From an uncultured Candidatus Saccharibacteria bacterium (GTDB taxonomy: Bacteria; Patescibacteriota; Andersenbacteria; UBA10190): a stretch of DNA of 64,000 nucleotides. The position numbers were made by a program, and so were the translations under genes. This document shows, piece after piece, positions 1,380 to 60,540 of this stretch (its first letter is position 1; every line of letters starts with the position of its first letter). The notes under the pieces are model-generated. The model did not search any database. It saw only the letters and a list, made by a program, of their open reading frames with translations, and was not told the DNA's origin. The stretch covers positions 16,094 to 80,093 of the forward strand of contig CAYUBL010000001.1 in assembly GCA_964443125.1 (NCBI GenBank). The letters are read 5' to 3'.

Positions 1380-2549
1380 ATGCGAATCGTACTTACCGGA
1401 GGGGGAACAGGAGGACACATCACTCCGTTCGAATCGATCATCGAACACCTGCGCATGGTGCATGCGAAAGAAAAAGGCAACTTGCCGAAGTTCCTCGATC
1501 CAGAAACGATTGAAATCTCGTTCATGGGTCCGCTTACGCCGGAGGGGCAAGAGATGTTCTCGTCATACCACATCCCCGCTATCCATATTCCGTCAGGGAA
1601 GATGCGGCGTTACGCTTCGCCGCTTACCATTATCGACATGCTATTCCGGCTGCCGTACGGCATTCTTCGCGGGCTGGCAATACTGTGGCGCATTATGCCC
1701 GATGTCGTCATCAGCAAAGGCGGATACGGGAACATTCCTGCTATTATTGCCGCCATCGTATATCGCATTCCGATCGTCATTCACGAATCAGACGTCGTAC
1801 CCGGCGCTTCAAACCGGTTTACCATGCGCTTTGCTGCGGCCATTACGCTCGGATTCGCCGTATCCCGAGAATATATCAGCGAGTGGAAACACAAGCTGTT
1901 CGTAACCGGTACTCCTGTCCGAGTGAGCTCGACCACTACGAATAAAAACGGGGCAAAGGCAACATTCCACATTCCGGAATCAGAACCGCTCATTCTGGTT
2001 ATGGGCGGAAGCCAAGGGGCGCAGCAAATCAATGAAGCGCTGCTTCCGGCCCTTCCCGAGCTGATTGAAAAAATGGCGATTGTACATATCGCCGGTCCGC
2101 GACAGTTTGAAGCGGTCCAGAAACTCGCATCAGAACTGCTGGCGAGCAGCTCTCGCAAAGCATTGTATAAAGTATTTCCATATGTGCAGAACAACATGAC
2201 TGCCGCGCTTCTTGCATGCGATGCTGCGGTGACACGAGCGGGTGCCAGCAGTCTTGCTGAAATTGCGCGATTTCGCATTCCTGCTCTCATTATCCCGCTC
2301 GCATCCGCCGCAAACGATCATCAGCGCAAAAACGCTTTGGCATTTGAAGCGGCTGGAGGAGCGCTTGTACTGGACCCCGACAATGTAAGTCCGAACTTGC
2401 TCAAGCAAAGCATCCTTCGGCTTATCTCAGACGCATCGCTGCAAGAGACACTCAAGAAAAACCTTGCCGCACTCGACTTTCCCAATGCCGCGCAAGATAT
2501 CGCCGCGCTATCTATAAAAATTGCCAGCGGCCTGCGCCCCTCCGTATGA
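1380..2549 (+). CDS. murG: Undecaprenyl-PP-MurNAc-pentapeptide GlcNAc transferase MurG
   Basis: N-terminal MRIVLTGGGTGGHITP motif, GT28 C-terminal domain (GGSQGA...), dcw context. Confidence 0.9.
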   Translation: MRIVLTGGGTGGHITPFESIIEHLRMVHAKEKGNLPKFLDPETIEISFMGPLTPEGQEMFSSYHIPAIHIPSGKMRRYASPLTIIDMLFRLPYGILRGLAILWRIMPDVVISKGGYGNIPAIIAAIVYRIPIVIHESDVVPGASNRFTMRFAAAITLGFAVSREYISEWKHKLFVTGTPVRVSSTTTNKNGAKATFHIPESEPLILVMGGSQGAQQINEALLPALPELIEKMAIVHIAGPRQFEAVQKLASELLASSSRKALYKVFPYVQNNMTAALLACDAAVTRAGASSLAEIARFRIPALIIPLASAANDHQRKNALAFEAAGGALVLDPDNVSPNLLKQSILRLISDASLQETLKKNLAALDFPNAAQDIAALSIKIASGLRPSV

Positions 2550-3772
2550 ACCGGGTACTGTTTCTCGGCGCGGGGGGAACAGGCATGCAAGGACTTGCGT
2601 ATTTGTTCCGTGAAAAAGGAGATGCGGTACTTCTTACCGACGATAACCCCGAGTTTCCCGGCTTGAGCCAAGAGGAAGCCGCGGCGCATCTTCAGGACAT
2701 TTCGCTCATGGTGTACACCGATGCGGCTCCTGAAACGCACGAACTTCGCCGACTGGCTCGAGAAAAATCCGTCCGGCAAATCCCATATCACGAAGCGCTC
2801 GGCGAATTCTCGCGCGCATATACGACCATTGCCGTCACCGGAACGCACGGAAAATCTTCCACCACCGCATTCCTTGCGCATATGTGCATTGAAGCGGGCA
2901 TCGACCCGACCGTATTGGTGGGAGCCCGCATGCCTTCGCTTCCTGGAGGACACGCACGGCTGGGCAAAAGCAAATATTTTATCGTAGAAGCGGACGAATA
3001 CCGCCAGCATTTTCTTCCTCTTGCTCCTGCGCACGCCATTATTACCAGTATCGACTTCGATCATCCGGATGCATTCACTTCGCTCGTCGATGTAGAGCTG
3101 GCGTACAGCGAGTTTCTTGCCCGTGTTGCGTCCGGAGGAACAGTTGCGGTTCCGAGGCATGAATACGAAAACCACCCCGGCATTTCTTGGCCGCACGGCA
3201 CCGACCCCGTAGAGCTCACCCTTGCCGCGCCGCTCCCCGGAGCGCATATGGCGGTCAATGCCGGCTTGGCTGCTCGTATTGCAGCCGTGATCGGTATCCC
3301 GCAAGAACAAGCACGTGTCTCCTTGCAAACTTTTCCGGGACTTGAGCGACGATTTGAATACATCGGAACGGTGCGCGGATGCGACATTCGCTCCGATTAT
3401 GGCCACCATCCTGCCGAACTTCGTGCGACCATCTCCGGCGCCCGCACTGCATACCCGGGTAAACGGCTCGCCGTGCTATTCGAAGCCCATATGCCGCTTC
3501 GGCTGCGAACGTTTTTTGATGAATTTGCGGCAGCCCTTTCGCTTGCGGACAGCATTGCCATCACACCTCCGTTCGCGCCGGCAGGCAGGGATGAAAGCGG
3601 CAGAGAAGATGCGCGGCGCCTGGTAAATACGCTCAAAAACGAAGGGAAAGACGCGCAATACGTTGAAGACGTGGATGCGTATCTCTCCCAAGGCCTTTCC
3701 GCGGATATTCTCCTCTTTTTTAGCGCCGGGCCGCTGGATTCGTTGATCCGAAAAACTGTCAAAAAGGGCTGA
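2546..3772 (+). CDS. murC: UDP-N-acetylmuramate--L-alanine ligase MurC
   Basis: Mur ligase P-loop VTGTHGKSSTTAF. ATGA overlap with the murG stop (translational coupling). Confidence 0.85.
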   Translation: MNRVLFLGAGGTGMQGLAYLFREKGDAVLLTDDNPEFPGLSQEEAAAHLQDISLMVYTDAAPETHELRRLAREKSVRQIPYHEALGEFSRAYTTIAVTGTHGKSSTTAFLAHMCIEAGIDPTVLVGARMPSLPGGHARLGKSKYFIVEADEYRQHFLPLAPAHAIITSIDFDHPDAFTSLVDVELAYSEFLARVASGGTVAVPRHEYENHPGISWPHGTDPVELTLAAPLPGAHMAVNAGLAARIAAVIGIPQEQARVSLQTFPGLERRFEYIGTVRGCDIRSDYGHHPAELRATISGARTAYPGKRLAVLFEAHMPLRLRTFFDEFAAALSLADSIAITPPFAPAGRDESGREDARRLVNTLKNEGKDAQYVEDVDAYLSQGLSADILLFFSAGPLDSLIRKTVKKG

Positions 3773-3891
3773 CAAAAAATAGATTTATCCAGAGTGGACA
3801 AAAATCAATAAGTCTCGTACGATAATTGGTCATATTTGCATATTGTGCATCATATTTGACAATATTTAATTCATATGCTAAAAAGGTATAT

Positions 3892-4965
3892 ATGAACCAA
3901 GAAACTGCGCACCAAGAATCGCAAACTGCAGTCCAAGACAAGCAAACAGTCAATTTTGCGCTTCTTACCGACGCCGCGCTTCAGGCGCTTGATGCACGCT
4001 CCCGGGATATCATTACCCGCCGATTTGGCATTGGAAAAGAGGAGAAAGAAACGCTGGAAAGCATCGGAAAAGAATACGGCATTACCCGAGAACGGGTGCG
4101 CCAAATCGAGTCAAATGCAAAGAAGGAGCTTACATCGATGCGGGATTCTTTCCAAAGCATCGAAGGGCTTTTGGTGGATATTTTCCGCCAGCATGGAGGC
4201 TTGATGGCGGAAAACCATGTGGTTTCCGAAGTGGAATCTCGCGTAGGCGATGAGATTTCCGCGCATGTCATTCATTTCTATCTGACGATTATTCCCGTAT
4301 TCTCTCTGCACCAGCCCAATGCGATGTTCGAGGCTCACTGGAAGCACGAAGCATCCCTCCATGGCAAAGAAGAGCAAATCGTACTCACCGCCATGGAAAC
4401 GCTGAAAGAAAAATCCCAGCCGATGCAGCTCTCGGATTTGATTTCTGAAATCAAGAAAACGATCGGCGAGGATGTTACCGACGCATACATTCATGCTGCG
4501 CTCGCCGCAAGCAAGAATATCGCCAAGACTGCATTTGGAGATTGGGGCCTTATCGGATGGGCAGAAACGTCTCCTCGGGGCGTAGGCGACAAGGCATTTG
4601 CCGTACTTCGCCGCAATAATGCCCCTGCGCATTTTCGGGATATTACGACCATGATCAATGCCGCAAATTTCGACCATAAGAAAGCAAATCCGCAAACCGT
4701 ACACAACGAACTTATTAAAGACGGTAGATTCGTCCTGGTGGGACGCGGCCTCTACGGGCTCAAAGAATGGGGATACGTCGCCGGAACGGTTGCCGATGTA
4801 TTGGAATCCATTTTGAAAAAATCGACTCGGCCGATGAAAAAGCAAGAACTGGTAGAAGAAGTTCTCAAGCAGCGCATGGTAAAAAAGAATACGATTCTGC
4901 TCTCGCTGCAGAATACAGCCCGCTTCGAACGCACAGACAAAGATCTGTACACGCTGCGCGCATAA
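3892..4965 (+). CDS. Protein with an N-terminal sigma-70 region-4 (HTH) domain and a roughly 280-aa uncharacterised C-terminal region
   Basis: Residues about 20-75 (LTDAALQALDARSRDIITRRFGIGKEEKETLESIGKEYGITRERVRQIESNAKKEL) are a canonical sigma-70 r4.2 HTH. No region 2/3 was recognised. AT-rich 116-bp intergenic region upstream with TTGACA-like elements. Start taken as MNQETAHQ. Confidence 0.6.
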   Translation: MNQETAHQESQTAVQDKQTVNFALLTDAALQALDARSRDIITRRFGIGKEEKETLESIGKEYGITRERVRQIESNAKKELTSMRDSFQSIEGLLVDIFRQHGGLMAENHVVSEVESRVGDEISAHVIHFYLTIIPVFSLHQPNAMFEAHWKHEASLHGKEEQIVLTAMETLKEKSQPMQLSDLISEIKKTIGEDVTDAYIHAALAASKNIAKTAFGDWGLIGWAETSPRGVGDKAFAVLRRNNAPAHFRDITTMINAANFDHKKANPQTVHNELIKDGRFVLVGRGLYGLKEWGYVAGTVADVLESILKKSTRPMKKQELVEEVLKQRMVKKNTILLSLQNTARFERTDKDLYTLRA

Positions 4966-4997
4966 CCAACCGTTTTGCGGTACAATGATGGAAGCAT

Positions 4998-6275
4998 ATG
5001 CTTTTGCTTCCTGACATCGTGGCCGCTCTGGCCCCCCAACTGATGACGATCGGGTGGCTTATTGTCGTATGGCTCATTCTCCTTGTTGCATGGAAGACAT
5101 ACATGCTCATGAAAATGATCGACTACATCAGCACGATCGAATGGACGCATCTGCAAGTCACGCTGCCGGAAGATACCGAAGAGACGCCCAAGTCCATGGA
5201 GGTCGTCTACGAAGTCATGGGCGGCATGCATAAAAATCCGGATTTCAATGAACTTTATTTCGACGGATATCTGGAGCCTTGGGTGAGTTTTGAGATGTAC
5301 TTTACCCCCAACAGCGTGCGCTATGTCATGGTAGTGCCCACCGCGCACCGCCGGCTCTTCGAAAGCGTCGTGTACGCCCAGTACCCGAAAGCAAATATTC
5401 AGGAAGTGGAAGATCAATCACTGCGATACGATTGGCATGATCTGCGGAAGAAGTACGAGATGTATGGAACAGAAATAACGCTCGCAGAAGATGACATTCT
5501 GCCCATTCGAACGTATCGCGAATTCGAAGCTACTCTTGCAGAACGAATTCCGTTTGTAGACCCGCATCAAATCATGATCGAAACGCTTACCAACGTGGAG
5601 CCGGGCGAGGAGTTCTGGATCCAGATCTTAGTCCGCCCCATGGATGGCAAAGCAATTAAGAAATGGGAAAAGAACGGAGAAAAGAAAGTTGCGGAAATAT
5701 CCGGCCAAGCCAAAAAGGAAAAGCCCGGCATGTGGGAAAAATTCCGCGATATTGTATTTGCGCTTCCCGGAGAACTGCTGACAGCGATATTCAAAGGCCC
5801 AATTACCGTTGAAAGCGAAAAAGAAGAGAAAGTGCTTCGGTTTTTCAATCCCGTAGACGAGGCGAAGATGAAAGCAATTCTCCAGAAAACATCCGTAAAC
5901 GGGTATAAGGTAAAGATCCGCGCCCTGCATATCGCTCCGGTGGGGCAGCTCAAGAAGCCGAATATCGGACGCCTCATCGGCGTATTCAAACAATTTGCGA
6001 CATTCCATTTAAATCATCTTTACCCAGACTCGACTACAAAGACGAACGGTCCTAATTTTATTATGAGAGACAGGCGCCGCCTGTGGCGAGAGAAAACGAT
6101 TCTCCAAAACTTCCAATGGCGCGACTTTTTCGGGCGGGATTCCGGATATGTCTTAAATGCGGAAGAACTTGCGACGTTGTATCATTTCCCTGTGAAGTAC
6201 GTATCGGCTCCGAGCGTTGCGCGGGCGAAGGCAGGCAAGCAGACGCCTCCTCCGAATTTGCCGTATGTATCCTAG
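4998..6275 (+). CDS. Hypothetical membrane-anchored protein (two N-terminal TM helices plus a large soluble domain); first gene of a pair with the downstream ATPase
   Basis: Hydrophobic N-terminus (IVAALAPQLMTIGWLIVVWLILLVAW), then a 380-aa charged domain. A 6-nt gap separates it from the next gene. Confidence 0.55.
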   Translation: MLLLPDIVAALAPQLMTIGWLIVVWLILLVAWKTYMLMKMIDYISTIEWTHLQVTLPEDTEETPKSMEVVYEVMGGMHKNPDFNELYFDGYLEPWVSFEMYFTPNSVRYVMVVPTAHRRLFESVVYAQYPKANIQEVEDQSLRYDWHDLRKKYEMYGTEITLAEDDILPIRTYREFEATLAERIPFVDPHQIMIETLTNVEPGEEFWIQILVRPMDGKAIKKWEKNGEKKVAEISGQAKKEKPGMWEKFRDIVFALPGELLTAIFKGPITVESEKEEKVLRFFNPVDEAKMKAILQKTSVNGYKVKIRALHIAPVGQLKKPNIGRLIGVFKQFATFHLNHLYPDSTTKTNGPNFIMRDRRRLWREKTILQNFQWRDFFGRDSGYVLNAEELATLYHFPVKYVSAPSVARAKAGKQTPPPNLPYVS

Positions 6276-6281
6276 CTTCCT

Positions 6282-7994
6282 ATGGATAGCGAAGAAATAA
6301 CCGTTATCGGCCAGACGAATTTCCGGAACCAGCGCAGGGCATTCGGCATTTACCCCGATGACCGCAGGCGCCACGTGTATGTGATCGGAAAAACCGGCGT
6401 AGGAAAAACAACCCTCCTCGAAAACATGATCATTCAAGACATCAAGAACGGCAAAGGGTTGGCGCTTGTCGATCCGCACGGCGACGTGGCGGAAAAAATC
6501 CTCGATATCATCCCGCCGGAACGCACCAACGACGTCGTATACTTCGACCCGGCAGACGTTGATTTTCCGGTTGCGTTTAACCCGCTGGAAGCCGTAAATC
6601 CGCAATACAAATATCTCGTCGCATCAGGACTGGTCAGCTCGCTCAAGAAAATATGGGCGGATTCTTGGGGGCCTCGCCTGGAGTATATCTTGCGGAATGT
6701 CATTTTGGCGCTTCTCGACTATCCGTCCAGCACCATGCTGGGAATCATGCGGATGCTCGCGGACAAGGCATACCGGAAGAAAGTTGTGGATACCATCCAA
6801 GACCCCGTCGTGAGAGCATTCTGGACGAACGAATTTGCCAACTACAACGAGCGATTCCGCAGCGAGGCCATTTCTCCCATTCAAAACAAAGTCGGGCAGT
6901 TTTTGAGCTCATCGATTATCCGTAATATCGTCGCCCAGCCCAAGAGCACCATCGACATGCAAGATATCATGGATAACGGAAAGATTTTGCTCATCAACGT
7001 ATCGAAGGGGAGAATCGGAGAAGACAATTCCGCACTCTTGGGCGCCATGCTCATCACCAAGCTTCAACTGGCAGCCATGGACCGCGCAAGCATTCCCGAA
7101 GAGGAGCGGCGAGATTTTTATCTGTACGTAGACGAATTCCAAAACTTCGCGACGGAGTCGTTCGCGACCATTTTGTCTGAAGCCAGAAAATACCGCCTCA
7201 ATCTTATCATTGCGCACCAATATATCACCCAGATGGAAGAAGTGGTCCGCGATGCCGTTTTTGGGAACGTAGGGACCCTCATTTCATTCCGAGTGGGCGC
7301 GTTCGATGCAGAGTACCTGGAAAAAGAATTCGCTCCCTATTTTACCCAGACCGATTTGGTAAATCTCGATAAGTACAACGCCTACATCAAGCTCATGATC
7401 CGCGGAGTAACGAGCGCTCCGTTTTCCATGGAAACCATTCCTCCCGTCTCCGAAACCTATCACAGCAGAGAGAAGGTCATTGCAGTATCGCGCGAGCGAT
7501 ACGGAAACAGGCGGGAAGTCATCGAAGAGAAAATTGCACGATGGAGCGGGGTAGCATTCCAAGCGGAGGCGGAAGAAATCGCGAAAGAAAACCAGCGGCT
7601 CGGACGACAGCTTCCATCCGATGCCCGCCCTCAACAGCAAAGGCAGCCAAAACCGGAAGAGTTGGAAGATATTGTTCTTGCGCCGAAAAAAGAAGAAATG
7701 ATTACGGACTTGTCAGCGCTGCTTGGAAAGAAGGATACTCCTCCTAGTTCATCGCGTGAACAAACCTCCTCTACCCCCTCCCCGCCATTACAGCCGGCAG
7801 GATTTGTAAGGAAGGGAAAGTCGCCCGAACTTTTCGACGCTATCTGTTCCAATTGCGGCAAGCAAACCCAAGTACCCTTCAACCCGGATCCGGAAAAAGA
7901 CGTGTTCTGCAAAGAATGTTACGAAAAGCGCAAAGCGGAGAAGAAAACACTTGCACCAAAGCGCTTCACCGGCCCGCGCCCGCCAAAACTATAG
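6282..7994 (+). CDS. TraD/VirD4/HerA-like P-loop ATPase (type IV coupling-protein-like) with a C-terminal Cys4 zinc ribbon
   Basis: Walker A YVIGKTGVGKTTLL followed by ALVDPHGD, and a Walker B-like LYVDEFQNF, as in TraD/TrwB/HerA-family DNA translocases. The C-terminus carries CSNCGKQ-x15-FCKECY. Confidence 0.65.
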   Translation: MDSEEITVIGQTNFRNQRRAFGIYPDDRRRHVYVIGKTGVGKTTLLENMIIQDIKNGKGLALVDPHGDVAEKILDIIPPERTNDVVYFDPADVDFPVAFNPLEAVNPQYKYLVASGLVSSLKKIWADSWGPRLEYILRNVILALLDYPSSTMLGIMRMLADKAYRKKVVDTIQDPVVRAFWTNEFANYNERFRSEAISPIQNKVGQFLSSSIIRNIVAQPKSTIDMQDIMDNGKILLINVSKGRIGEDNSALLGAMLITKLQLAAMDRASIPEEERRDFYLYVDEFQNFATESFATILSEARKYRLNLIIAHQYITQMEEVVRDAVFGNVGTLISFRVGAFDAEYLEKEFAPYFTQTDLVNLDKYNAYIKLMIRGVTSAPFSMETIPPVSETYHSREKVIAVSRERYGNRREVIEEKIARWSGVAFQAEAEEIAKENQRLGRQLPSDARPQQQRQPKPEELEDIVLAPKKEEMITDLSALLGKKDTPPSSSREQTSSTPSPPLQPAGFVRKGKSPELFDAICSNCGKQTQVPFNPDPEKDVFCKECYEKRKAEKKTLAPKRFTGPRPPKL

Positions 7995-54008: not shown

Positions 54009-54036
54009 AACGCCGATCACCCGATCGGCGTTTTTT
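54009..54036 (+). terminator. Rho-independent terminator CGCCGATC-accc-GATCGGCG-TTTTTT; left edge of the AT-rich island
   Basis: 8-bp perfect stem followed by T6. GC content drops sharply to its right. Confidence 0.7.
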
Positions 54037-54481
54037 CTTGCTCAAGTTTTTCTAGTTGTATTTTGCGGAGTTGTTCATATATAGCATCAACCTCTTGCTC
54101 TATTACAGAGCGATCATGCCCTTGAGTCTCTAGCTCCCAAAGTACTTCTTCTACCGCTTTATCAAAATCATTGCCATATTTCACATTAATCTTTTTCCAA
54201 TGCACATTTGCAAATAGCTTTGCAATATCGGGGGAATAGGCAATTTTACCAAGCAGCATGAGCACAGCGATCATCGGATACCCGATGTACTTCTGCCAAT
54301 ACGTTCCATTATCATTTGAAATCATCGCGCTTGCGTCCGCATTCCATTTCACCACATACGATTTATCGCGAGATGAAGACGTAACTTTTGCCTTGTTCCC
54401 ATCCAGCAGATCGACACGCCCATCTGCCACGGTAGATAGCGCCTCATATACTTTTGCCTTTGGTGGAACTTTCCAGAGCAT
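54017..54481 (-). CDS. Hypothetical protein (minus strand, divergent from the nuclease-like gene)
   Basis: About 154-aa ORF (start taken as MLWKVPPKAK). Its 3' end runs into the terminator stem, so the exact end is uncertain. No family recognised. Confidence 0.35.
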   Translation of the reverse strand: MLWKVPPKAKVYEALSTVADGRVDLLDGNKAKVTSSSRDKSYVVKWNADASAMISNDNGTYWQKYIGYPMIAVLMLLGKIAYSPDIAKLFANVHWKKINVKYGNDFDKAVEEVLWELETQGHDRSVIEQEVDAIYEQLRKIQLEKLEQEKTPIG

Positions 54482-54538
54482 ATACTCATCATATCGAAAA
54501 ATATTCGGTTTTTGTACGTTATAAGATAGAATACAAAC

Positions 54539-55030
54539 ATGCCTATCCAGAAACAAAATGTTGGCAATGCAGGAGAGTATTACATTGCTGCTAGACTATC
54601 TGCAGAGAATTTTATCGCGACAATAACTCTGGGCCGTGCTGAAAAGTACGATATTCTTGCGCTAAGCCCAACCTCTAGAAGTGTACGACTTTCCGTCAAA
54701 ACGCAATTCTTAAAAACATCAAAATCATTCCCCCTGTCCGAAAAGGATGAAAGAGGGGAGTCAGAAGATTTTTACTATTGTTTTATCCGACTCAATGAAT
54801 TTCAGCAAGAGCCTGATTTTTGGATCATACCAAGCACTATTGTATGTCCGATACTAAAAAATTCACACGCAAAATGGCTAAGCGGAATGGGTAAGAACGG
54901 CCACATCAGAAAAGATACCTCGATGAGACTCCTGCCGCTGATCGTTTCGAGCGGATTACTAGAATTCTATCCCGAAAAATGGGAAGATGACTTAGCGCAG
55001 TATTACAAAAATATTGAACAATTGACCTAA
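54539..55030 (+). CDS. PD-(D/E)xK-fold (Hjc/restriction-endonuclease-like) nuclease candidate
   Basis: N-terminal VGNAGEYYIAARLSAENF...AEKYDILAL...VRLSVKT reproduces the GxxGE-x(n)-DIxA-x(n)-(E/S)VK pattern of Hjc-type resolvases and small restriction-like nucleases. The third acidic position is Ser. Confidence 0.45.
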   Translation: MPIQKQNVGNAGEYYIAARLSAENFIATITLGRAEKYDILALSPTSRSVRLSVKTQFLKTSKSFPLSEKDERGESEDFYYCFIRLNEFQQEPDFWIIPSTIVCPILKNSHAKWLSGMGKNGHIRKDTSMRLLPLIVSSGLLEFYPEKWEDDLAQYYKNIEQLT

Positions 55031-55043
55031 AAGAATATAAGAA

Positions 55044-55544
55044 ATGAGAAAAACAATTATAATATCACCGACAAAACCATTAATAGTAACAATAACACCA
55101 CTTGCTCTTGCTATAATATCCGATGATTTTCATAACGCAGCAGAAAAACTCTCGATTAAAGATCGTATTTCTTTGGTAAAATATTATTTGTACCTAGCGG
55201 CAATAGAGAGAGGATTAAAAGCAGCTATCCTAAGCAAAGAATTCACGAAAGAAAAAAAGGGGTATCTGAAAAATAGAATCGGACATGATATCGAAAGGCT
55301 ATATCAAGATTTTAAAAAATCATTTGCTTTGGATTTATTCAACAAAAGTGACCTAAAATCTTTAAAAAAAGCTAACGCGAGATACAGAGACAAGGGATTT
55401 GAATACTTTGACAGTGATATGCTGTATCAAGCAGCAATAGGGTTTAAAGATTTACCAAGCCTAGAAGGGATTCGCAGTATAAGCAAGAAAGTTAATGCTT
55501 TTCTTATACGAAATAAGTCTTTCATAGAACAGGGGTCCAGCTAA
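55044..55544 (+). CDS. Hypothetical alpha-helical protein (loose HEPN-like resemblance, unconfirmed)
   Basis: 166 aa with ERGLKAAILSKEF...LKNRIGHDIERLY. A charged R-x-x-H-D-x-E patch in a helical scaffold, which does not cleanly fit the Rx4-6H motif. Confidence 0.3.
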   Translation: MRKTIIISPTKPLIVTITPLALAIISDDFHNAAEKLSIKDRISLVKYYLYLAAIERGLKAAILSKEFTKEKKGYLKNRIGHDIERLYQDFKKSFALDLFNKSDLKSLKKANARYRDKGFEYFDSDMLYQAAIGFKDLPSLEGIRSISKKVNAFLIRNKSFIEQGSS

Positions 55545-55592
55545 TATTCGGTTTTTGTATCTAGTAAAAATGGGATACTATTAATATTAGGT

Positions 55593-56549
55593 ATGTCTAC
55601 AAGACAAGCAGTCAAGAATATACAAGAGGAATTTGGCCTTAGTCCAATATATGCTGAACGAGTTTACTCGTTAGCAAATAAAGATAATTTATCTGAAGAC
55701 GTGGCACGGATTATCGCGGAAAAGCCCAAACCTTTTGTAAAATGGGTAGGAGGCAAACGCCAGCTTTTGACACAGTTTAAAACTCTCAATCTCTACCCTC
55801 CATCTCGTTTTGATATTCATAAAGGAACGTATTATGAGCCTTTTATTGGTGGAGGCGCTGTATTCTTCGATCTCCTACCAGCAAAGGCGGTTCTATCTGA
55901 TTTAAACGAAGAACTCGTCATCACATACAAAGTTATTCAACATGATGCACAAAAACTCATTGAATCTTTAAAAAAGCATAAGAACAACAAAGAATATTTT
56001 CTAAAAGTACGAGCGCTGGACTGGAAAGACTTGAGCGACATTGAAACTGCTTCTCGATTTATTTTCTTAAATCGAACTTGTTTTAATGGGCTGTATCGAG
56101 TTAACAGCAAAGGGCAATTCAATGTTCCATTTGGAAAGTATGTAAAACCTCTTATTTGCGATGAAGAGAATATAAGAAAAGTATCAAAAGCACTACAGGG
56201 CATTAAGATCATACATAGTGACTATAAAAAAACAGTACGCAAAGCTCAAGAAGGAGACTTTGTATATTTTGACCCACCTTACTATCCAATCAGTAAAACG
56301 TCGTCATTTACCTCGTATACAAAAGAGTCTTTTTTAGAGAACAATCAGATAGAGCTTCGAGACACGTTTGCAGAATTGCACAAAAGGGGCTGTTTTATAA
56401 TGCTCTCGAACTCTGATACACCATTTATTAATGATATTTACTCTACAATCAAAGGGGCCACTATTACAAAGGTTCGTGCCGGTAGGGCGGTAAACGCCAA
56501 TGCGAGAGGGAGAGGGAAGATTGCCGAGATTCTCGTAACTAATTACTAA
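55593..56549 (+). CDS. Dam-family (D12 class) N6-adenine DNA methyltransferase
   Basis: Collinear with E. coli Dam/DpnM: FVKWVGGKRQLL, YYEPFIGGGAVFF (motif I), FLNRTCFNGLYRVNSKGQFNVPFGKY, and DFVYFDPPYYPISKTSSFTSYT (motif IV DPPY). Confidence 0.85.
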   Translation: MSTRQAVKNIQEEFGLSPIYAERVYSLANKDNLSEDVARIIAEKPKPFVKWVGGKRQLLTQFKTLNLYPPSRFDIHKGTYYEPFIGGGAVFFDLLPAKAVLSDLNEELVITYKVIQHDAQKLIESLKKHKNNKEYFLKVRALDWKDLSDIETASRFIFLNRTCFNGLYRVNSKGQFNVPFGKYVKPLICDEENIRKVSKALQGIKIIHSDYKKTVRKAQEGDFVYFDPPYYPISKTSSFTSYTKESFLENNQIELRDTFAELHKRGCFIMLSNSDTPFINDIYSTIKGATITKVRAGRAVNANARGRGKIAEILVTNY

Positions 56550-56556
56550 AAATAAT

Positions 56557-57816
56557 ATGACGAAGATATCTGATGCCTGGGAGAAAGTGTTTGCAATAAA
56601 AAACTACGACCTAACAAAGAACCTGCATTCCATTACAGCTAAAGAGATTAAACAGATTACAGGTGAAGAGCCACGTATAATGGCAAAGTTCGATTCTTCT
56701 ATGGACCTACCAAACATCATGAAGAAAAATGGATATTTTTTATTGCCAGTAAAAAACGGAGAATACGCTATAGTTCGCGGTAACGGCTTCCATACACTTG
56801 AAAAAACAAGAGATTGGACAAACCACACATCACGTATCAAATTTAATTTAACAACAGCTGGTCGCGGGTTAAGTGAAATGCAGTATTTGGACTATAGCTT
56901 TAACTCTGGAGCGCTTGAGGACATTCTAGACATTACGCCCCTGTACCAATCTATTCGTGGACGTGAATACAGCAAACAATTTCACTTTGCGGTCGACAAG
57001 ACCAAAATTAACGTTGAATCCGTTCAGCTTGAAGTAGATTCTGGTCTTGAGGGCGAAGATTCCATTGTCCTTATTGAAGCTAAAGTCAAAAGTCCCGAAG
57101 ATTTTATTATTCGTCAACTTTTCTACCCATATAATCATTTTAGAATTGTATCTCCAGACAAGAGAGTAATTCCTGTCTTTTTTGTTTATGAACCATCATC
57201 ACAACTTTATCATTTCTGGATATACGAATTTACAGATCCCGCCAATTATAACTCTATTCGCCTGAAAGAGATCAAATCACTAATGATAAGCACTGAACAA
57301 GAGATAAAACTATCCGACATCAAGCCAAAGGGAATAGTTAATTACAAGGATCTCATTCCTCAAGCAAATGACCTGAATAAAGTAATTGAGCTCGCATTTA
57401 AGGTTAAAGAAGGCGTAAATCATTATAAAAAAGTTGCGGAATATTTTAAATTTAATGAACGACAAAGTAGCTACTACAGAGAAGCAGCAGAGGCCCTGGG
57501 ACTAGTCATAAGCGAAAAAGGTGCTTACCAATTAACCGACATTGGTAAACATTTAGTAGCCCTGCCGGCAGAAAAACGTAATTTATTTATGGTGGAACTA
57601 TTAAGTGATTTCAGCTTAATTAAAAGAAGTCTGAATATTCTTGAGAGCAACGGTAAATTACTCCAAGATGACCTAGAAAATATTATTGAGCAACAATCTT
57701 ACTTAAGTCAGTCGACAATTTCGCGTCGCGCTGGATCTCTTAAAAGGTGGCTTGAATGGATATCAGAAGCCACTGGTTCCTTTACAAACGAAGAGAATGA
57801 GTTCCGAACAGAATAA
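56557..57816 (+). CDS. Putative type II restriction endonuclease (PD-(D/E)xK core) with a C-terminal winged-helix-like extension
   Basis: Lies between two DNA methyltransferase genes. EVDSGLEGEDSIVLIEAKVKS fits a D-x(n)-E-x-K nuclease motif. No match to DpnII recognised by eye. Confidence 0.5.
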   Translation: MTKISDAWEKVFAIKNYDLTKNLHSITAKEIKQITGEEPRIMAKFDSSMDLPNIMKKNGYFLLPVKNGEYAIVRGNGFHTLEKTRDWTNHTSRIKFNLTTAGRGLSEMQYLDYSFNSGALEDILDITPLYQSIRGREYSKQFHFAVDKTKINVESVQLEVDSGLEGEDSIVLIEAKVKSPEDFIIRQLFYPYNHFRIVSPDKRVIPVFFVYEPSSQLYHFWIYEFTDPANYNSIRLKEIKSLMISTEQEIKLSDIKPKGIVNYKDLIPQANDLNKVIELAFKVKEGVNHYKKVAEYFKFNERQSSYYREAAEALGLVISEKGAYQLTDIGKHLVALPAEKRNLFMVELLSDFSLIKRSLNILESNGKLLQDDLENIIEQQSYLSQSTISRRAGSLKRWLEWISEATGSFTNEENEFRTE

Positions 57817-58567
57817 ACCCGGGATAGATCTACATGACTTTGAGCTAGAATGCACTACCGTTTGGGCTTTTCCACGCAGAGGCAACTGGGCAACACATAC
57901 TTCGGACTGGAGAGGCAATTGGGCGCCAGAAGTAGTACGAAATCTTATTTTGAGATATTCGAAAGAAAAAGATATTCTCTTCGATCCAATGATTGGTGGC
58001 GGAACTACTGCCATAGAAGCCAAGATTCTAAACCGGAATATCATCTGCTCAGATGTTAACAAAAAAGCCCTAAAAAGAACTAAGGATTGTCTAAACTTCG
58101 AAATTGACAATACATCTTGGCAAAAAATCTATAGGTGGGATGCGCGCGACTTAAATAAACTCCCCAATGAAAGCATTGATTTTATCCTCACACATCCTCC
58201 ATACGCCGACATTATAAAATATAGCGAGGGTAAAATAAATTCCGATATGTCAAACATCCATGATTTGGAAGAGTTTGCGAACGAGATGGAGAAAGTTGCT
58301 AAAGAGTTATATCGGGTACTTAAGCCTGGTAAGTTTTGTGCAATACTCATAGGAGACACTCGACGCAAAAAGATGTATCAACCCTTGGCGTATAAAGTAA
58401 TGGATAGATTCCTAAAAGCAGGATTCCAGCTGAAAGAGGATATTATTAAAAGACAATTCAACTGCAAAGCAACTGGTTTCTGGGCTAAGAGGTCACAAGA
58501 GTCAAATTTTCTCCTAATCATGCACGAGCATTTGTTTGTGTTTCAGAAAATTAGACCTAATGATTAA
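57797..58567 (+). CDS. N6/N4-type DNA methyltransferase (PF01555-like; DpnA/MboC-like second methylase)
   Basis: Motif I-like FDPMIGGGTTAIEAKILN. Motif IV is THPPY (His in place of D/N/S). Start taken as MSSEQNK (GAAGAGA RBS), 20-nt overlap with the upstream gene. Confidence 0.7.
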   Translation: MSSEQNKPGIDLHDFELECTTVWAFPRRGNWATHTSDWRGNWAPEVVRNLILRYSKEKDILFDPMIGGGTTAIEAKILNRNIICSDVNKKALKRTKDCLNFEIDNTSWQKIYRWDARDLNKLPNESIDFILTHPPYADIIKYSEGKINSDMSNIHDLEEFANEMEKVAKELYRVLKPGKFCAILIGDTRRKKMYQPLAYKVMDRFLKAGFQLKEDIIKRQFNCKATGFWAKRSQESNFLLIMHEHLFVFQKIRPND

Positions 58568-58699
58568 ATCTTTAATCTTTATTAGAAATAATATTAATAT
58601 CACAGGTCTGTTCTTTGACAGCTAAGGAAGTTGTCGCCAGAACATCAATACTCCCTTAAACTAATTAACAATAAGATACCATAACCTTTCGTTGAATAT

Positions 58700-59845
58700 A
58701 TGAAAGTAACAGTGAGGCCAATAGTCCTAAAAGGATGGCGTATCAGAAAAGGATTACCGCTCGAGGCTGTAGTAGCAAAAACAAAGATCGAAGAGTCCGA
58801 AATAAGTCACTGGGAAACTCACAGAAGCGAGATAAGTGTTGCCGATCTCAAAAAGATAGCGAAGTTTTATAGGTTATCGTGGACAGCATTTTTACTAGAT
58901 GAACTGCCTCCATCAAAAAAAGATCCAGTAAACCACAGGCGGCGACCTGATGCTAAGGATTTTTCTCCGGAGACATTGCAAGCTTTTACGCGTGCTAGGC
59001 ATATTCTTGAGTTTGCATCTGACATTGGCTTAGTAAAAGAAAATAAACTCACGGAGAGGTTCCCCACCGCAATAACTCATAATCCTGAACTTGTTGCCTC
59101 AAAGGTCAGAAGTTATATAGAAACACCTTTTGATCATCAACTAAAATGGCGCAATGCCAATGTGGCGAAACGTAAATGGATTGATATTCTTGAGCGAGAG
59201 GGTATTTATATTGCCGAAATGGATATGCCCGAAGTTGAAGCGAGGGGTTTTTCACTGAAGGAAAGCGGAAGGGATATTATAGTCTTGAGTAAAAATGATT
59301 CCGTAAACGGTCGTATATTTTCTCTATTTCATGAGGTAGCCCATTTGTTACTTAAAAAGTCCGGTGTTTGCGACATGTATGAAGGTAATGGTCCCGATCA
59401 AAGAGTGGATAGAACCGAAGTATTTTGCAATGCATTTGCGGGTGCTTTTCTTTTACCGAGTCAAAGCTTCCTAAATGATAGTTTAGTTATATCAGCAATA
59501 AGGGAAAAGAACTTTTCCGATTCGGTCCTACAATATTTGGGAAAACGCTTTAATGTTAGTGCTGCCGTTGTACTAAGAAGACTAAATAACTTTGGATATA
59601 TTTCTAGTCAAGAATATAAACGTCGCTACACAGACGAACAAGATATGTATGTTGAGAGTGAAGAGAAAAATAAAAAGGGCTTCGCACGACATGAATACAA
59701 AGTTATCAATCAAAATGGGCGCGCGTTCACGTCTGAAGTGATTACTGCGTATGCTTCGAATATTATTACTGCTCATGATGTTAGCAATTACCTCAATACA
59801 ACCGTAAGAAGTATTTCGCGTATTGAGCAAGCGCTTTCTAAATAG
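58700..59845 (+). CDS. ImmA/IrrE-family (COG2856) zinc metallopeptidase with an N-terminal XRE-like HTH
   Basis: HEXXH site FHEVAHLLL and an N-terminal HTH-like segment (SVADLKKIAKFYRLSWTAFL). Confidence 0.7.
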   Translation: MKVTVRPIVLKGWRIRKGLPLEAVVAKTKIEESEISHWETHRSEISVADLKKIAKFYRLSWTAFLLDELPPSKKDPVNHRRRPDAKDFSPETLQAFTRARHILEFASDIGLVKENKLTERFPTAITHNPELVASKVRSYIETPFDHQLKWRNANVAKRKWIDILEREGIYIAEMDMPEVEARGFSLKESGRDIIVLSKNDSVNGRIFSLFHEVAHLLLKKSGVCDMYEGNGPDQRVDRTEVFCNAFAGAFLLPSQSFLNDSLVISAIREKNFSDSVLQYLGKRFNVSAAVVLRRLNNFGYISSQEYKRRYTDEQDMYVESEEKNKKGFARHEYKVINQNGRAFTSEVITAYASNIITAHDVSNYLNTTVRSISRIEQALSK

Positions 59846-59850
59846 TTTCC

Positions 59851-60360
59851 ATGAACGCTCAACTCAGCATGGAGCAGCTCTACTGCATAGACAGCTCAGC
59901 TCTTATAGAGTTGTGGAATCCTGACAACTGGCAATTGCCAAAGGATGTATCCCAACTGATTTGGTCTCATGTAGATACTCTTGTTGCCCAGCAACGAATC
60001 ATTTCTTCACGCGAGGTTTACGATGAAATTAAGGATGATTTAAATGATGGCTTCAGGCAATGGATGCGAGTGCATCGCGACATATTCCTAGAGCTAGATA
60101 GTGAACAAATTAAACTGGGCAAGGCGATAGTTAATAAATATCCCCTACTGACTGATGGGGGTAGAAATCATGCCGACCCATTTGTGGTATCAGTGGCCAA
60201 AGCTCATGGTGCGACTGTCATTGGCTGCGAAAAACCTGTGACTACAACGCACTCACAGATAAGACCAAAAATCCCTAGCCTATGCCACGAACACGCAGTT
60301 GAATATGTCACAATTAAAGATTTTTGCATGAAGGAAAGACTGAGTTTCCGGTTAGCGTAA
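59851..60360 (+). CDS. DUF4411-family (PIN-like) protein, partner of the ImmA/IrrE peptidase
   Basis: 169 aa. PIN-like N-terminus YCIDSSALIEL with conserved Asp. 5-nt spacing from the upstream peptidase gene. Confidence 0.55.
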   Translation: MNAQLSMEQLYCIDSSALIELWNPDNWQLPKDVSQLIWSHVDTLVAQQRIISSREVYDEIKDDLNDGFRQWMRVHRDIFLELDSEQIKLGKAIVNKYPLLTDGGRNHADPFVVSVAKAHGATVIGCEKPVTTTHSQIRPKIPSLCHEHAVEYVTIKDFCMKERLSFRLA

Positions 60361-60540
60361 AGAAAGACTAGGTCCATGAGCTGAATAGAGATACGTTTAT
60401 CATTCCCGTAAGCGACAAAACGGATGCGATGCGGATCGGGATGGGACTAGAGCTGCTGACAATTGTATATTTTAACGGGCGGACAACTGAAGAAATCCAG
60501 CAGGCCGAAAAATACGGTGTTCGACGAAACGGGCAAGGGA

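What the first reader, a model, noticed from the sequence alone, without database searches (positions are those of the whole stretch)
55593..58567. Two-methylase type II restriction-modification cassette in M-R-M order (Dam-family methylase, PD-(D/E)xK endonuclease, N6/N4 methylase)
A clear Dam/DpnM-family methyltransferase (all motifs collinear with E. coli Dam) is followed by a 419-aa nuclease candidate (D...EAK motif plus a C-terminal winged-helix-like region) and a second PF01555-type methylase whose motif IV reads HPPY rather than D/N/SPPY. Two methylases flanking an endonuclease recall MboI/DpnII/LlaDCHI-type GATC systems, in which the second methylase protects single-stranded DNA. The endonuclease does not obviously resemble DpnII, and the HPPY variant is unusual, so the specificity and methylation type (m6A or m4C) are open.
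Basis: partly seen in the sequence, partly recalled or inferred. Interest (0 to 1): 0.5.

Follow-up and report, generated by a model that had tools for sequence, protein, structure and literature searches.

The report
GATC-type two-methylase restriction-modification cassette
This is an ordinary kind of bacterial defence, a restriction enzyme gene flanked by two protective DNA methylase genes that most likely targets GATC, but the cutting enzyme belongs to an unstudied family and sits in a slot where related cassettes carry quite different nucleases.

Summary
Three co-oriented, tightly packed genes lie in a low-GC island (38% against 52%) of a Patescibacteria-like chromosome.

- **M1 (55593-56549):** a Dam/DpnM-family methylase.
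- **R (56557-57816):** Pfam calls its three domains DUF6996, DUF6997 and DUF7226. It has a predicted PD-(D/E)xK nuclease core (E107, D161, E174-x-K176, each kept in 143-146 of 150 distant relatives) and a C-terminal tandem winged-helix domain.
- **M2 (true start 57797, ends 58567):** a PF01555 methylase with motif I ahead of motif IV. Its HPPY motif is kept across the whole family.

R relatives sit next to a DNA methylase gene in nearly all of about 70 informative loci, and some are fused to a Dam domain.

Orthologues of M1 (60-70% identical) and M2 (about 80%) flank genuine DpnII-family, MutH-like or DUF6997 nucleases in other cassettes. DNA similarity stops exactly at the methylase gene borders. 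This argues strongly for GATC specificity and for R being a working substitute for DpnII/MboI, although it is not related to them (hhalign probability 1.4%).

M2 is not of the DpnA/M.MboIC type, and its product (m6A or m4C) remains open. Verdict: a new member of a known kind, of moderate interest. No activity was tested.

The parts
55593..56549 (+). M1: Dam/DpnM-family (D12 class, alpha-type order) N6-adenine DNA methylase, 318 aa. Motif I (FIGGGAV) lies at nt 55842-55862 and motif IV (DPPY) at nt 56271-56282. Residues 1-45 form an N-terminal extension seen only in cassettes that also carry M2.
   Evidence: PF02086 at E 1.3e-62. TIGR00571 at 285.8 bits against a cut-off of 114.85. DpnM structure 2dpm at E 2.4e-71. 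Motif coordinates. The extension is kept in L001, L004, L007, L009, L015 and in the M2-bearing loci, but not in cassettes without M2.
56557..57816 (+). R: candidate type II restriction endonuclease, 419 aa, made of DUF6996, DUF6997 and DUF7226.
   Evidence: Pfam hits at 9e-21, 7e-44 and 9e-22. PADLOC REase_II model PDLC03513 at E 1.3e-41 over residues 12-403. No PDB sequence match even at E 10. AlphaFold2 model with pLDDT 91.3.
56572..56772 (+). R residues 6-72: DUF6996, a small N-terminal alpha/beta domain of unknown role, possibly DNA recognition.
   Evidence: PF22515 at E 9.3e-21. R40 and D46 are kept in 143 and 133 of 150 distant representatives.
56782..57273 (+). R residues 76-239: DUF6997, the predicted PD-(D/E)xK nuclease core. 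Candidate catalytic residues are E107 (nt 56875-56877), D161 (57037-57039), E174 (57076-57078) and K176 (57082-57084), followed by R186-Q187 in the next helix.
57379..57771 (+). R residues 275-405: DUF7226, a tandem winged-helix domain and a likely extra DNA-binding module. It is dispensable in the family, since short forms of about 250 aa lack it.
57797..58567 (+). M2: small (256 aa) PF01555-related DNA methylase with permuted motif order. Motif I (DPMIGGGTT) lies at nt 57983-58009 and comes before motif IV (HPPY) at nt 58193-58204.
   Evidence: PF01555 at 91.3 bits in two stretches, and UPF0020 at 4.7e-10. PADLOC MTase_II model PDLC03376 at E 2.6e-86. In the alignment to TTHA0409 (2zie), the query's motif IV region matches the chain's N-terminus and the query's motif I region matches its C-terminus. 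More than 6000 relatives, those listed being 78-85% identical. The start at ATG 57797 equals P0121.
54010..60400 (.). Low-GC island (38.5% against 52.5% for the rest of the window) that carries the cassette, three unannotated ORFs upstream and an HTH-M78/DUF4411 pair downstream. This indicates horizontal acquisition.
   Evidence: Composition profile and GC values. A terminator-like hairpin at 54009-54032 sits at the left edge.

Best explanation
The three genes form one operon encoding a type II restriction-modification system that most likely recognises GATC.

- **M1:** a Dam/DpnM-type enzyme that methylates the adenine of GATC on the host chromosome.
- **R:** a PD-(D/E)xK endonuclease that cuts DNA whose GATC sites lack that mark. 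Its likely metal-binding and catalytic residues are E107, D161, E174 and K176. Its C-terminal tandem winged-helix domain probably adds DNA binding.
- **M2:** a second, accessory methylase of a permuted PF01555-related class. It always travels with this particular M1 lineage and adds a second layer of modification. Its exact product is not known.

The cassette arrived by horizontal transfer. It belongs to a widespread Patescibacteria-centred cassette family in which the two methylase genes are conserved and the nuclease gene between them is exchanged as a module.

Shown here: gene content, fold, residue conservation, gene linkage and the exchange of the nuclease between cassettes.

Inferred: GATC specificity, cleavage activity, sensitivity to methylation, and the role of M2.
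For: 1. Identity of M1. It scores TIGR00571 285.8 bits against a cut-off of 114.85 and aligns to DpnM at E 2.4e-71.

2. R looks like a nuclease.
- The models are confident (pLDDT 91-92).
- The best structural matches of the N-terminal half are PD-(D/E)xK nucleases.
- E107, D161, E174 and K176 are each kept in 143-146 of 150 representatives that are no more than 50% identical to one another. The family has 942 such representatives.

3. R is linked to methylases.
- A Dam-like gene lies upstream of the R homologue, directly so in nearly all cases, in 29 of 36 genome loci.
- A PF01555 beta-class methylase takes that place in 5 more.
- A Dam-like gene is adjacent in 32 of 37 viral contigs, and on Lactiplantibacillus and Enterococcus plasmids.
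- Four representatives of about 725 aa are single ORFs joining a D12 methylase to DUF6996, DUF6997 and DUF7226. One joins R to a MutH domain.
- PADLOC's type II REase model matches R end to end at 1.3e-41.

4. GATC specificity.
- Orthologues of M1 (62-66% identical over the full length) and of M2 (about 80%) flank PF04556 DpnII-family nucleases.
- Of 68 complete cassettes, the slot holds DpnII in 28, DUF6997 in 21, MutH-like in 5 (3 called by the script plus L087 and L088, which it left as 'other'), and two unknown small families in 14.
- One further locus, whose M1 is truncated, carries a DpnI-family gene in the slot.
- L099 (DpnII) and L087 (MutH-like) share 95% identical methylases. Their DNA is 90-91% identical across exactly M1 and M2 and unrelated in between.
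- DpnII/MboI, MutH/Sau3AI and DpnI are all GATC enzymes (established knowledge; PMC2441816, PMC5608340).

5. All three window genes are full length with their motifs intact.
Against: - No biochemical or methylome evidence exists for this locus or for any member of the R family that I could find. NCBI names them 'hypothetical protein' and Pfam calls the domains DUFs.
- The PADLOC label may rest only on REBASE predictions.
- GATC is not clearly avoided in the window: observed/expected is 0.82, similar to several other palindromes. A recent island would not be expected to show avoidance anyway.
- R could recognise a longer site that contains GATC.
- M2's specificity is not constrained by any direct evidence.
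Confidence: 0.75

Rival explanations
1. The system is a real restriction-modification system, but its site is not plain GATC. Either R reads a longer or different sequence, or M2 has a specificity of its own unrelated to R, as a hitch-hiking or anti-restriction methylase like the orphan relatives on conjugative plasmids.
For: M2's more distant relatives (about 31% identical, also HPPY) are solitary methylases on conjugative Vibrio, Neisseria and other plasmids with no nuclease beside them. Most R homologues work with a Dam-like gene alone and have no M2, so M2 is not needed to protect against this nuclease family. In L097 an M2-like reading frame survives next to a DpnI-family gene while M1 is truncated. 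This hints that M2 may not make Gm6ATC on duplex DNA.
Against: In this clade M2 is almost never seen without the M1 lineage. All 68 complete cassettes have both genes, and contigs lacking M1 are mostly too short to tell. M1 is about as close to DpnM as to the Dam-like partners of R in other phyla. The slot is shared with three GATC-specific nuclease families.
Confidence: 0.15
2. The middle protein is not a restriction enzyme. It is instead a DNA-binding regulator or a methyl-directed nicking or repair nuclease working with Dam, as MutH does, so the locus would be an epigenetic or repair module rather than a defence system.
For: The C-terminal half is a tandem winged helix resembling MarR-type regulators and BrxA. 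MutH-like proteins occupy the same slot in other cassettes, and one R relative is fused to a MutH domain.
Against: - The catalytic PD-(D/E)xK residues are nearly invariant across 150 distant representatives.
- Short forms lack the winged-helix half altogether.
- The genes sit on plasmids, prophages, giant-virus contigs and low-GC islands with a patchy spread across phyla, which is typical of mobile defence genes and not of repair genes.
- Extra defence genes (GmrSD, AIPR, Mrr, DndB-like) are inserted into the same cassettes.
- Some cassettes carry a small HTH controller gene upstream, as C-protein-regulated R-M systems do.
Confidence: 0.07
3. The cassette is a genuine R-M system by descent but is silent or decaying in this genome, for example through an inactive R or lack of expression.
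For: No convincing sigma-70-like promoter was found upstream of M1: promoter-like sites are fewer than in shuffled sequence (12 against a mean of 18.3), though the scan does not cover other promoter types. Two unrelated ORFs sit between the island edge and M1.
Against: All three reading frames are full length with every conserved residue in place. Gene junctions are tight or overlapping. Closely related M-R-M copies exist in four other genomes.
Confidence: 0.05

Closest known systems
MboI system of Moraxella bovis (M.MboIA - R.MboI - M.MboIC), GATC
   Same: The gene order is the same: methylase, endonuclease, methylase. The first methylase is Dam-like. GATC is the inferred target. Genuine DpnII/MboI-family nucleases sit between orthologues of this window's M1 and M2 in other cassettes.
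   Different: R has no detectable relationship to the MboI/DpnII family PF04556 and carries an extra tandem winged-helix domain. M2 has motif I ahead of motif IV and reads HPPY, whereas M.MboIC is, from my own knowledge and not tested here, a DpnA-like beta-class enzyme.
DpnII system of Streptococcus pneumoniae (dpnM, dpnA, dpnB) and LlaDCHI
   Same: M1 is a close relative of DpnM (E 2.4e-71). The system has two methylases and one nuclease. The alternation of DpnII-type and DpnI-type cassettes at one locus in pneumococci (PMC3812788) is mirrored by L097, where a DpnI-family gene replaces the nuclease and the 3' end of M1.
   Different: The gene order differs (M-M-R in DpnII). The nuclease is unrelated. 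M2 is not of the DpnA type: matches to the solved chains deposited as DpnA (5hek, 5hfj) cover only about 55 residues around motif I, at E 2.5e-4 and 6.4e-4. Methylation of single-stranded DNA by M2 is untested.
R.CviAI / M.CviAI of chlorovirus PBCV-1 (A579L / A581R), GATC
   Same: CviAI is a GATC-specific PD-(D/E)xK enzyme reported as unrelated to both the MboI and Sau3AI families (PMC2441816; PMC7248222). Short-form relatives of R occur next to Dam-like genes on giant-virus contigs.
   Different: Whether R.CviAI belongs to the DUF6996/DUF6997 family could not be tested, because no sequence was available to me. The giant-virus relatives found here are all annotated as hypothetical.
Cas4/RecB-like and Hjc/YraN-like PD-(D/E)xK nucleases
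   Same: R shares their fold and their acidic-acidic-lysine catalytic arrangement, followed by a conserved Q in the next helix.

Membership tests
Dam/DpnM family (D12 class N6-adenine DNA methylases) - for M1 | The protein scores above the curated family cut-offs. | tested here: met
   PF02086 at 212.2 bits against a cut-off of 22. TIGR00571 at 285.8 against 114.85. The E. coli Dam equivalog NF008152 is not reached (161.6 against 441), so M1 is a family member and not a Dam orthologue.
Dam/DpnM family - for M1 | Motif I (FxGxG) lies ahead of motif IV (DPPY), with the target-recognition region between them (alpha order). | tested here: met
   FIGGGAV at residues 84-90 and DPPY at 227-230. M1 is collinear with DpnM residues 12-282 and with E. 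coli Dam residues 3-266.
Dam/DpnM family - for M1 | The enzyme methylates the adenine of GATC. | not testable with these tools
   Inferred from closeness to DpnM and from orthologues that flank DpnII-family and MutH-like nucleases, and in one locus with a truncated M1 a DpnI-family nuclease.
DpnII/MboI restriction endonuclease family (PF04556) - for R | Detectable sequence or profile similarity to the family. | tested here: not met
   No PF04556 hit at E up to 0.01. BLASTP against two DpnII-family proteins from sister cassettes finds nothing. hhalign of a 35-sequence DpnII profile against a 50-sequence DUF6997 profile gives a probability of 1.4%.
PD-(D/E)xK nuclease superfamily - for R | The alpha-beta-beta-beta-alpha-beta core fold. 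| tested here: met
PD-(D/E)xK nuclease superfamily - for R | A conserved acidic residue on the second strand and (D/E)xK on the third strand. | tested here: met
   D161 lies in strand 157-165 and E174-A-K176 in strand 169-177. They are kept in 145, 143 and 146 of 150 representatives.
Type II restriction-modification system | A separate nuclease gene and methylase gene are adjacent and inherited together. | tested here: met
   A methylase gene lies beside the R homologue in 34 of 35 informative genome loci, in 32 of 37 viral contigs and on plasmids. Methylase-R fusions also exist.
Type II restriction-modification system | The nuclease cleaves at or near a defined site unless that site carries the cognate methylation. 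| not testable with these tools
Beta-class N6/N4 methylases of the DpnA / M.MboIC type - for M2 | A match to PF01555. | tested here: met
   91.3 bits against a cut-off of 26.7.
Beta-class N6/N4 methylases of the DpnA / M.MboIC type - for M2 | Motif IV ((D/N/S)PPY) is N-terminal and motif I (FxGxG) is C-terminal. | tested here: not met
   M2 has DPMIGGGTT at residues 63-71 and HPPY at 133-136. The PF01555 match is split into two stretches in swapped order, and the alignment to TTHA0409 (2zie) is likewise swapped.
Beta-class N6/N4 methylases of the DpnA / M.MboIC type - for M2 | The first residue of motif IV is D, N or S. | tested here: not met
   It is H in the window, in 120 of 120 close relatives, in the 57% identical Fusobacterium relative and in the 31% identical Vibrio plasmid relative.

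The most novel reading that the evidence does not exclude
The conserved pair M1 + M2 forms a recombination scaffold. The two methylase genes act as homology arms between which at least five mutually unrelated families of GATC-directed nucleases are swapped in and out: DpnII-type, DUF6996/6997 in short and long forms, MutH-like, and two unnamed small families, with a DpnI-type gene in one locus where M1 is truncated. On this reading the window's R represents a further, independently evolved and biochemically unexplored GATC restriction enzyme family. M2, with its HPPY motif and permuted order, would be a distinct class of DNA methylase whose product differs from that of M1. One possibility is N4-methylcytosine within GATC, which would shield Dam-marked DNA from DpnI-like enzymes.
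Probability: 0.3. Interest if true: 0.6.

Novelty: new member of a known kind. Interest (0 to 1): 0.4.

Why it matters
As a defence system it is ordinary. Standard tools already label all three genes as type II R-M parts, and unrelated enzyme families converging on GATC is a known theme (PMC2441816).

Three things give it some value:

1. **An untested nuclease family.** R belongs to a large family (942 representative clusters) that Pfam and NCBI still leave unnamed. It could supply a new GATC enzyme with a distinctive winged-helix appendage.
2. **A clear case of gene replacement.** The cassette family shows a restriction gene being replaced by unrelated ones between fixed methylase genes. This bears on how R-M systems diversify while keeping the host's methylation pattern unchanged.
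3. **A testable methylase.** The very highly conserved HPPY methylase is an easy experimental target for settling whether it makes m6A or m4C. That matters for reading the methylomes of Patescibacteria, and of Fusobacterium, which carries a 57% identical copy.

Tried and rejected
- **Relation of R to DpnII/MboI.** Tested with Pfam, BLASTP and profile-profile comparison. Rejected.
- **Names for the R family.** All relatives are 'hypothetical protein', or carry spurious labels such as 'translation elongation factor' or 'AAA-associated domain'. No paper in the searchable library mentions DUF6997.
- **Provenance of the PADLOC REase label.** The two PADLOC papers only cite REBASE and give no detail.
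- **GATC avoidance in the window.** Uninformative: 0.82, within the range of other palindromes.
- **Integration signals for the island.** No flanking tRNA gene and no convincing terminal repeats; only an internal 17-nt repeat.
- **Link to R.CviAI.** Not testable without the sequence.
- **A published methylome for an isolate carrying an R homologue.** L. brevis UCCLB521 has an unassigned GATC motif (PMC6533708). I could not connect that strain to the gene.
- **Whether the long form of R replaces the separate HTH controller gene.** The controller is absent from the five long-form cassettes but also from many others, so the test is inconclusive.
- **Exact look-up of the window's R contig.** Nothing was returned.
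Full report
**What is in the window.** Three + strand ORFs occupy 55593-58567. They lie inside a stretch of about 6.4 kb (54010-60400) with 38.5% G+C, against 52.5% for the rest of the window. The rest of the window is chromosomal, with SecA, AlaRS, PBP2, DnaX and LysRS. The nearest named relatives of its SecA are Candidatus Andersenbacteria, in the Patescibacteria, at 62-69% identity. The cassette is therefore a horizontally acquired island in a candidate-phyla-radiation genome. Seven bases separate M1 from R. R and M2 overlap by 20 bases once M2 is started at ATG 57797, the start supported by relatives and by the 256-aa database protein P0121, and not at the mechanical TTG 57752.

**M1.** M1 is a clear Dam/DpnM-family enzyme.
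- It scores PF02086 at E 1.3e-62 and TIGR00571 at 285.8 bits against a cut-off of 114.85.
- It aligns with the DpnM structure at E 2.4e-71 and with E. coli Dam structures at about 1e-35.
- Motifs I and IV are in the alpha order.
- It is not an E. coli Dam orthologue by NCBI's equivalog threshold.
- Its first 45 residues form an extension found only in cassettes that also carry M2.

**The middle protein.** Pfam sees three domains of unknown function: DUF6996, DUF6997 and DUF7226. NCBIfam sees nothing, and no solved structure matches by sequence. PADLOC's type II REase model PDLC03513 matches end to end at E 1.3e-41.

A separate model of residues 1-253 (pLDDT 92.2) mostly matches PD-(D/E)xK proteins:
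- Cas4-like ACE1, NucS, AddB and RecU.

The similarity is at superfamily level only.

The family is large, with 942 representative clusters at E up to 1e-3. Across 150 representatives the candidate catalytic residues are nearly invariant: E107 in 144, D161 in 145, E174 in 143, K176 in 146 and Q187 in 146. D161 and E174-x-K176 fall on consecutive strands of the model.

**Linkage to methylases.**
- In 36 genome loci from many phyla (Patescibacteria, Chloroflexota, Bacteroidota, Bacillota, a Haloferax), a Dam-like gene lies upstream of the R homologue in 29, directly so in nearly all.
- In five more, a full-length beta-class PF01555 methylase takes that place.
- The same pairing holds in 32 of 37 viral contigs, including giant-virus contigs where a short R form converges on a Dam-like gene.
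- It also holds on Lactiplantibacillus and Enterococcus plasmids, annotated 'DNA adenine methylase' followed by 'hypothetical protein'.
- Four representatives of about 725 aa are single reading frames that join a D12 methylase to the three R domains. One joins R to a MutH domain and one to a Schlafen AlbA_2 domain. These fusions come from automatic gene calls on metagenomes, so some may be artefacts.
- Short forms of about 250 aa lack DUF7226, so that domain is an accessory.

**M2 and the wider cassette family.** M2 has more than 6000 relatives, and those listed are 78-85% identical to it. Their contexts gave the most informative result.

- In the first three looked up, the M2 homologue sits directly after a nuclease gene that follows an M1 orthologue. 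In two cases the nuclease is a genuine PF04556 DpnII-family protein of about 285 aa. In the third it is a short DUF6996/DUF6997 protein.
- The window's M1 is 62-66% identical over its full length to those M1 proteins, and M2 is about 80% identical to those M2 proteins. R and the DpnII-type proteins share nothing by BLASTP or by profile comparison, where hhalign gives a probability of 1.4%.
- A first pass over 80 metagenome loci found a DpnII-family gene upstream of M2 in 30 and a short DUF6997 form in 17.

I then restricted the count to the 68 cassettes, drawn from the metagenome, genome and look-up loci plus the window, in which both methylase genes are complete. The slot between them holds:

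| Slot content | Cassettes |
|---|---|
| DpnII family | 28 |
| short DUF6997 | 16 |
| long DUF6997 (the window, L001, L004, L007, L015) | 5 |
| MutH-like (PF02976); 3 called by the script, plus L087 and L088, which it left as 'other' | 5 |
| unnamed families of about 213 and 176 aa | 14 |

The two unnamed families have sequences that also contain PD...ExK-like strings. Extra defence genes (GmrSD, AIPR, DndB-like, DUF5655, Mrr) are sometimes inserted as well.

Slot type does not follow methylase relatedness. For 29 of the 68 cassettes, the nearest neighbour by M1+M2 carries a different nuclease.

DNA comparison of three such pairs shows 80-91% identity across exactly the M1 and M2 genes and nothing in between. 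The nuclease gene is therefore exchanged as a module between conserved methylase genes.

DpnII/MboI and MutH/Sau3AI act on GATC (established knowledge; PMC2441816, PMC5608340). Methylases that are 95% identical cannot plausibly differ in specificity. GATC is therefore the well-supported inference for the window's system, and R is a functional stand-in for DpnII.

One locus, L097, carries a DpnI-family gene in the slot. DpnI cuts only Gm6ATC. There M1 is truncated just after motif IV, while the M2 part looks largely intact. This fits M1 making Gm6ATC. It hints, from a single case, that M2 may not.

**What M2 is.**
- It matches PF01555 above threshold, but in two stretches in swapped order. Its alignment to the beta-class enzyme TTHA0409 (2zie) is likewise swapped.
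- Motif I (residues 63-71) comes before HPPY (133-136). M2 is therefore not a DpnA/M.MboIC-type enzyme.
- NCBI names relatives 'TRM11 family SAM-dependent methyltransferase' or 'DNA methyltransferase'.
- HPPY is invariant in 120 of 120 listed relatives. It is also kept in a 57% identical copy in cultured Fusobacterium vincentii SB055, within a cassette reading Dam - DpnII - Mrr - M2, and in a 31% identical solitary methylase on a conjugative Vibrio plasmid. It is a family hallmark and not a local oddity.

Whether M2 makes m6A or m4C, and at what site, cannot be decided here. MboI-type enzymes are blocked by either modification of GATC, and DpnI is blocked by cytosine methylation (PMC5608340), so both options would make biological sense.

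In pneumococci the second methylase, DpnA, acts on incoming single strands (my own knowledge; see PMC3573125 and PMC3812788). That role for M2 is analogy only.

Most R homologues have a Dam-like partner and no M2, so M2 is not required for protection against this nuclease family.

**Mechanism proposed.** M1 marks the host's GATC sites. R binds DNA and cuts where the mark is missing. Its DUF6996 and DUF6997 domains, helped by the winged-helix tail, would do the binding, and E107, D161, E174 and K176 would do the cutting. M2 adds a second modification.
- Shown: gene content, fold, conservation, linkage and modular exchange.
- Inferred: activity, site and methyl sensitivity.

**Rivals.** I considered three: a different or longer recognition site, or an independent M2; a regulatory or repair role for R; and a silent remnant. 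The evidence for and against each is given in the rival section.

**Comparison with known systems and novelty.** The arrangement matches MboI in gene order and DpnII in its first methylase. It differs from both in the nuclease and in the class of the second methylase. Independent origins of GATC enzymes on the PD-(D/E)xK scaffold were already noted for MboI, Sau3AI and CviAI (PMC2441816). Whether R is related to CviAI could not be tested.

Automated defence annotation already recognises all three proteins. I therefore rate the window's feature a new member of a known kind, of moderate interest. The interest lies in the unexplored nuclease family, the HPPY methylase, and the nuclease-swapping behaviour of the cassette family.

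Noticed in passing
L048-L127, L040-L047 (metagenome loci), compared with window 55593-58567: The conserved M1-[slot]-M2 cassette carries mutually unrelated nucleases in the slot: DpnII family, short or long DUF6997, MutH-like, and two unnamed families of about 213 and 176 aa that contain PD...ExK-like strings. In three pairs compared, DNA identity of 80-91% covers exactly M1 and M2 and stops at their borders (for example L099 against L087).
   Followed up: yes
L097 2212-4726: A DpnI-family gene (PF06044 + PF17726) sits in the slot. M1 is cut short at 245 aa, just after DPPYYP. The M2 part keeps HPPY but has DSM in place of DPM in motif I and a foreign stretch of about 100 aa at its N-terminus. 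This mirrors the pneumococcal DpnI/DpnII cassette alternation and hints that M2 may not make Gm6ATC.
   Followed up: partly
P0246, P0247, P0273, P0366, P0385, P0303 (representative proteins): Some single reading frames fuse a D12 Dam-type methylase to DUF6996, DUF6997 and DUF7226 (about 725 aa). Another fuses R to a MutH domain, and another to a Schlafen AlbA_2 domain. I did not check whether these are true fusions or gene-calling read-through.
   Followed up: partly
window 58700-59845 and 59851-60360 (+): Directly downstream in the same island lies an HTH + M78 peptidase (ImmA/IrrE-like) protein. It matches PADLOC RmrA models at E 6e-23 and the spr1629 antitoxin family below its cut-off. It is followed by a DUF4411 protein. 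The pair looks like a toxin-antitoxin or a second defence module.
   Followed up: partly
window 54500-54516 and 55543-55559: A perfect 17-nt direct repeat, AATATTCGGTTTTTGTA, lies 22 nt before the ATG of ORF 54539-55030 and 33 nt before the ATG of M1. It brackets two unannotated ORFs. It may be a duplicated promoter or operator, or the scar of an insertion.
   Followed up: no
window 54017-54556 (-), 54539-55030 (+), 55044-55544 (+): Three ORFs of 163-179 aa in the low-GC island have no Pfam or NCBIfam match, apart from one weak PADLOC hit (PDC-S36, E 1e-3). They are not conserved next to the cassette in related loci.
   Followed up: partly
window 55593-55727 (M1 residues 1-45): M1 has an N-terminal extension of about 45 aa, predicted to be helical from its sequence pattern and conserved (IYA...ED...EKPKP). 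It occurs only in cassettes that also carry M2 and is absent from the Dam-like partners of R elsewhere. It could be a regulatory or interaction module.
   Followed up: no
L155, L156, L158, L159, L161-L163 (giant-virus and other viral contigs): Short-form R relatives (27-31% identical) sit tail to tail with, and sometimes overlap, a Dam-like methylase gene on giant-virus MAG contigs. This raises the untested possibility that the chlorovirus GATC enzyme R.CviAI belongs to this family.
   Followed up: partly
L165 (NZ_CP084075.1, Fusobacterium vincentii SB055) 2345-5711: A cultured Fusobacterium carries a cassette reading Dam - DpnII - Mrr_cat - M2-like (57% identical to M2, HPPY kept). The 2.1-Mb record is filed in the plasmid collection as 'plasmid pSB055A' with a single annotated feature, so it is evidently a chromosome.
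   Followed up: partly
L043 3056-3283 and about 18 other loci: A small HTH_3 protein, which looks like a controller (C) protein, is encoded just upstream of M1 in cassettes of every slot type. It is absent from the window and from the other long-form M-R-M loci.
   Followed up: partly
window 6282-7994 (+): A 570-aa protein shows weak VirD4/TraD-like coupling-protein similarity (E 1.5e-13 and 5e-12, far below both family cut-offs) and has a C-terminal CxxC-x17-CxxC domain. It lies far from the cassette and I did not pursue it.
   Followed up: no
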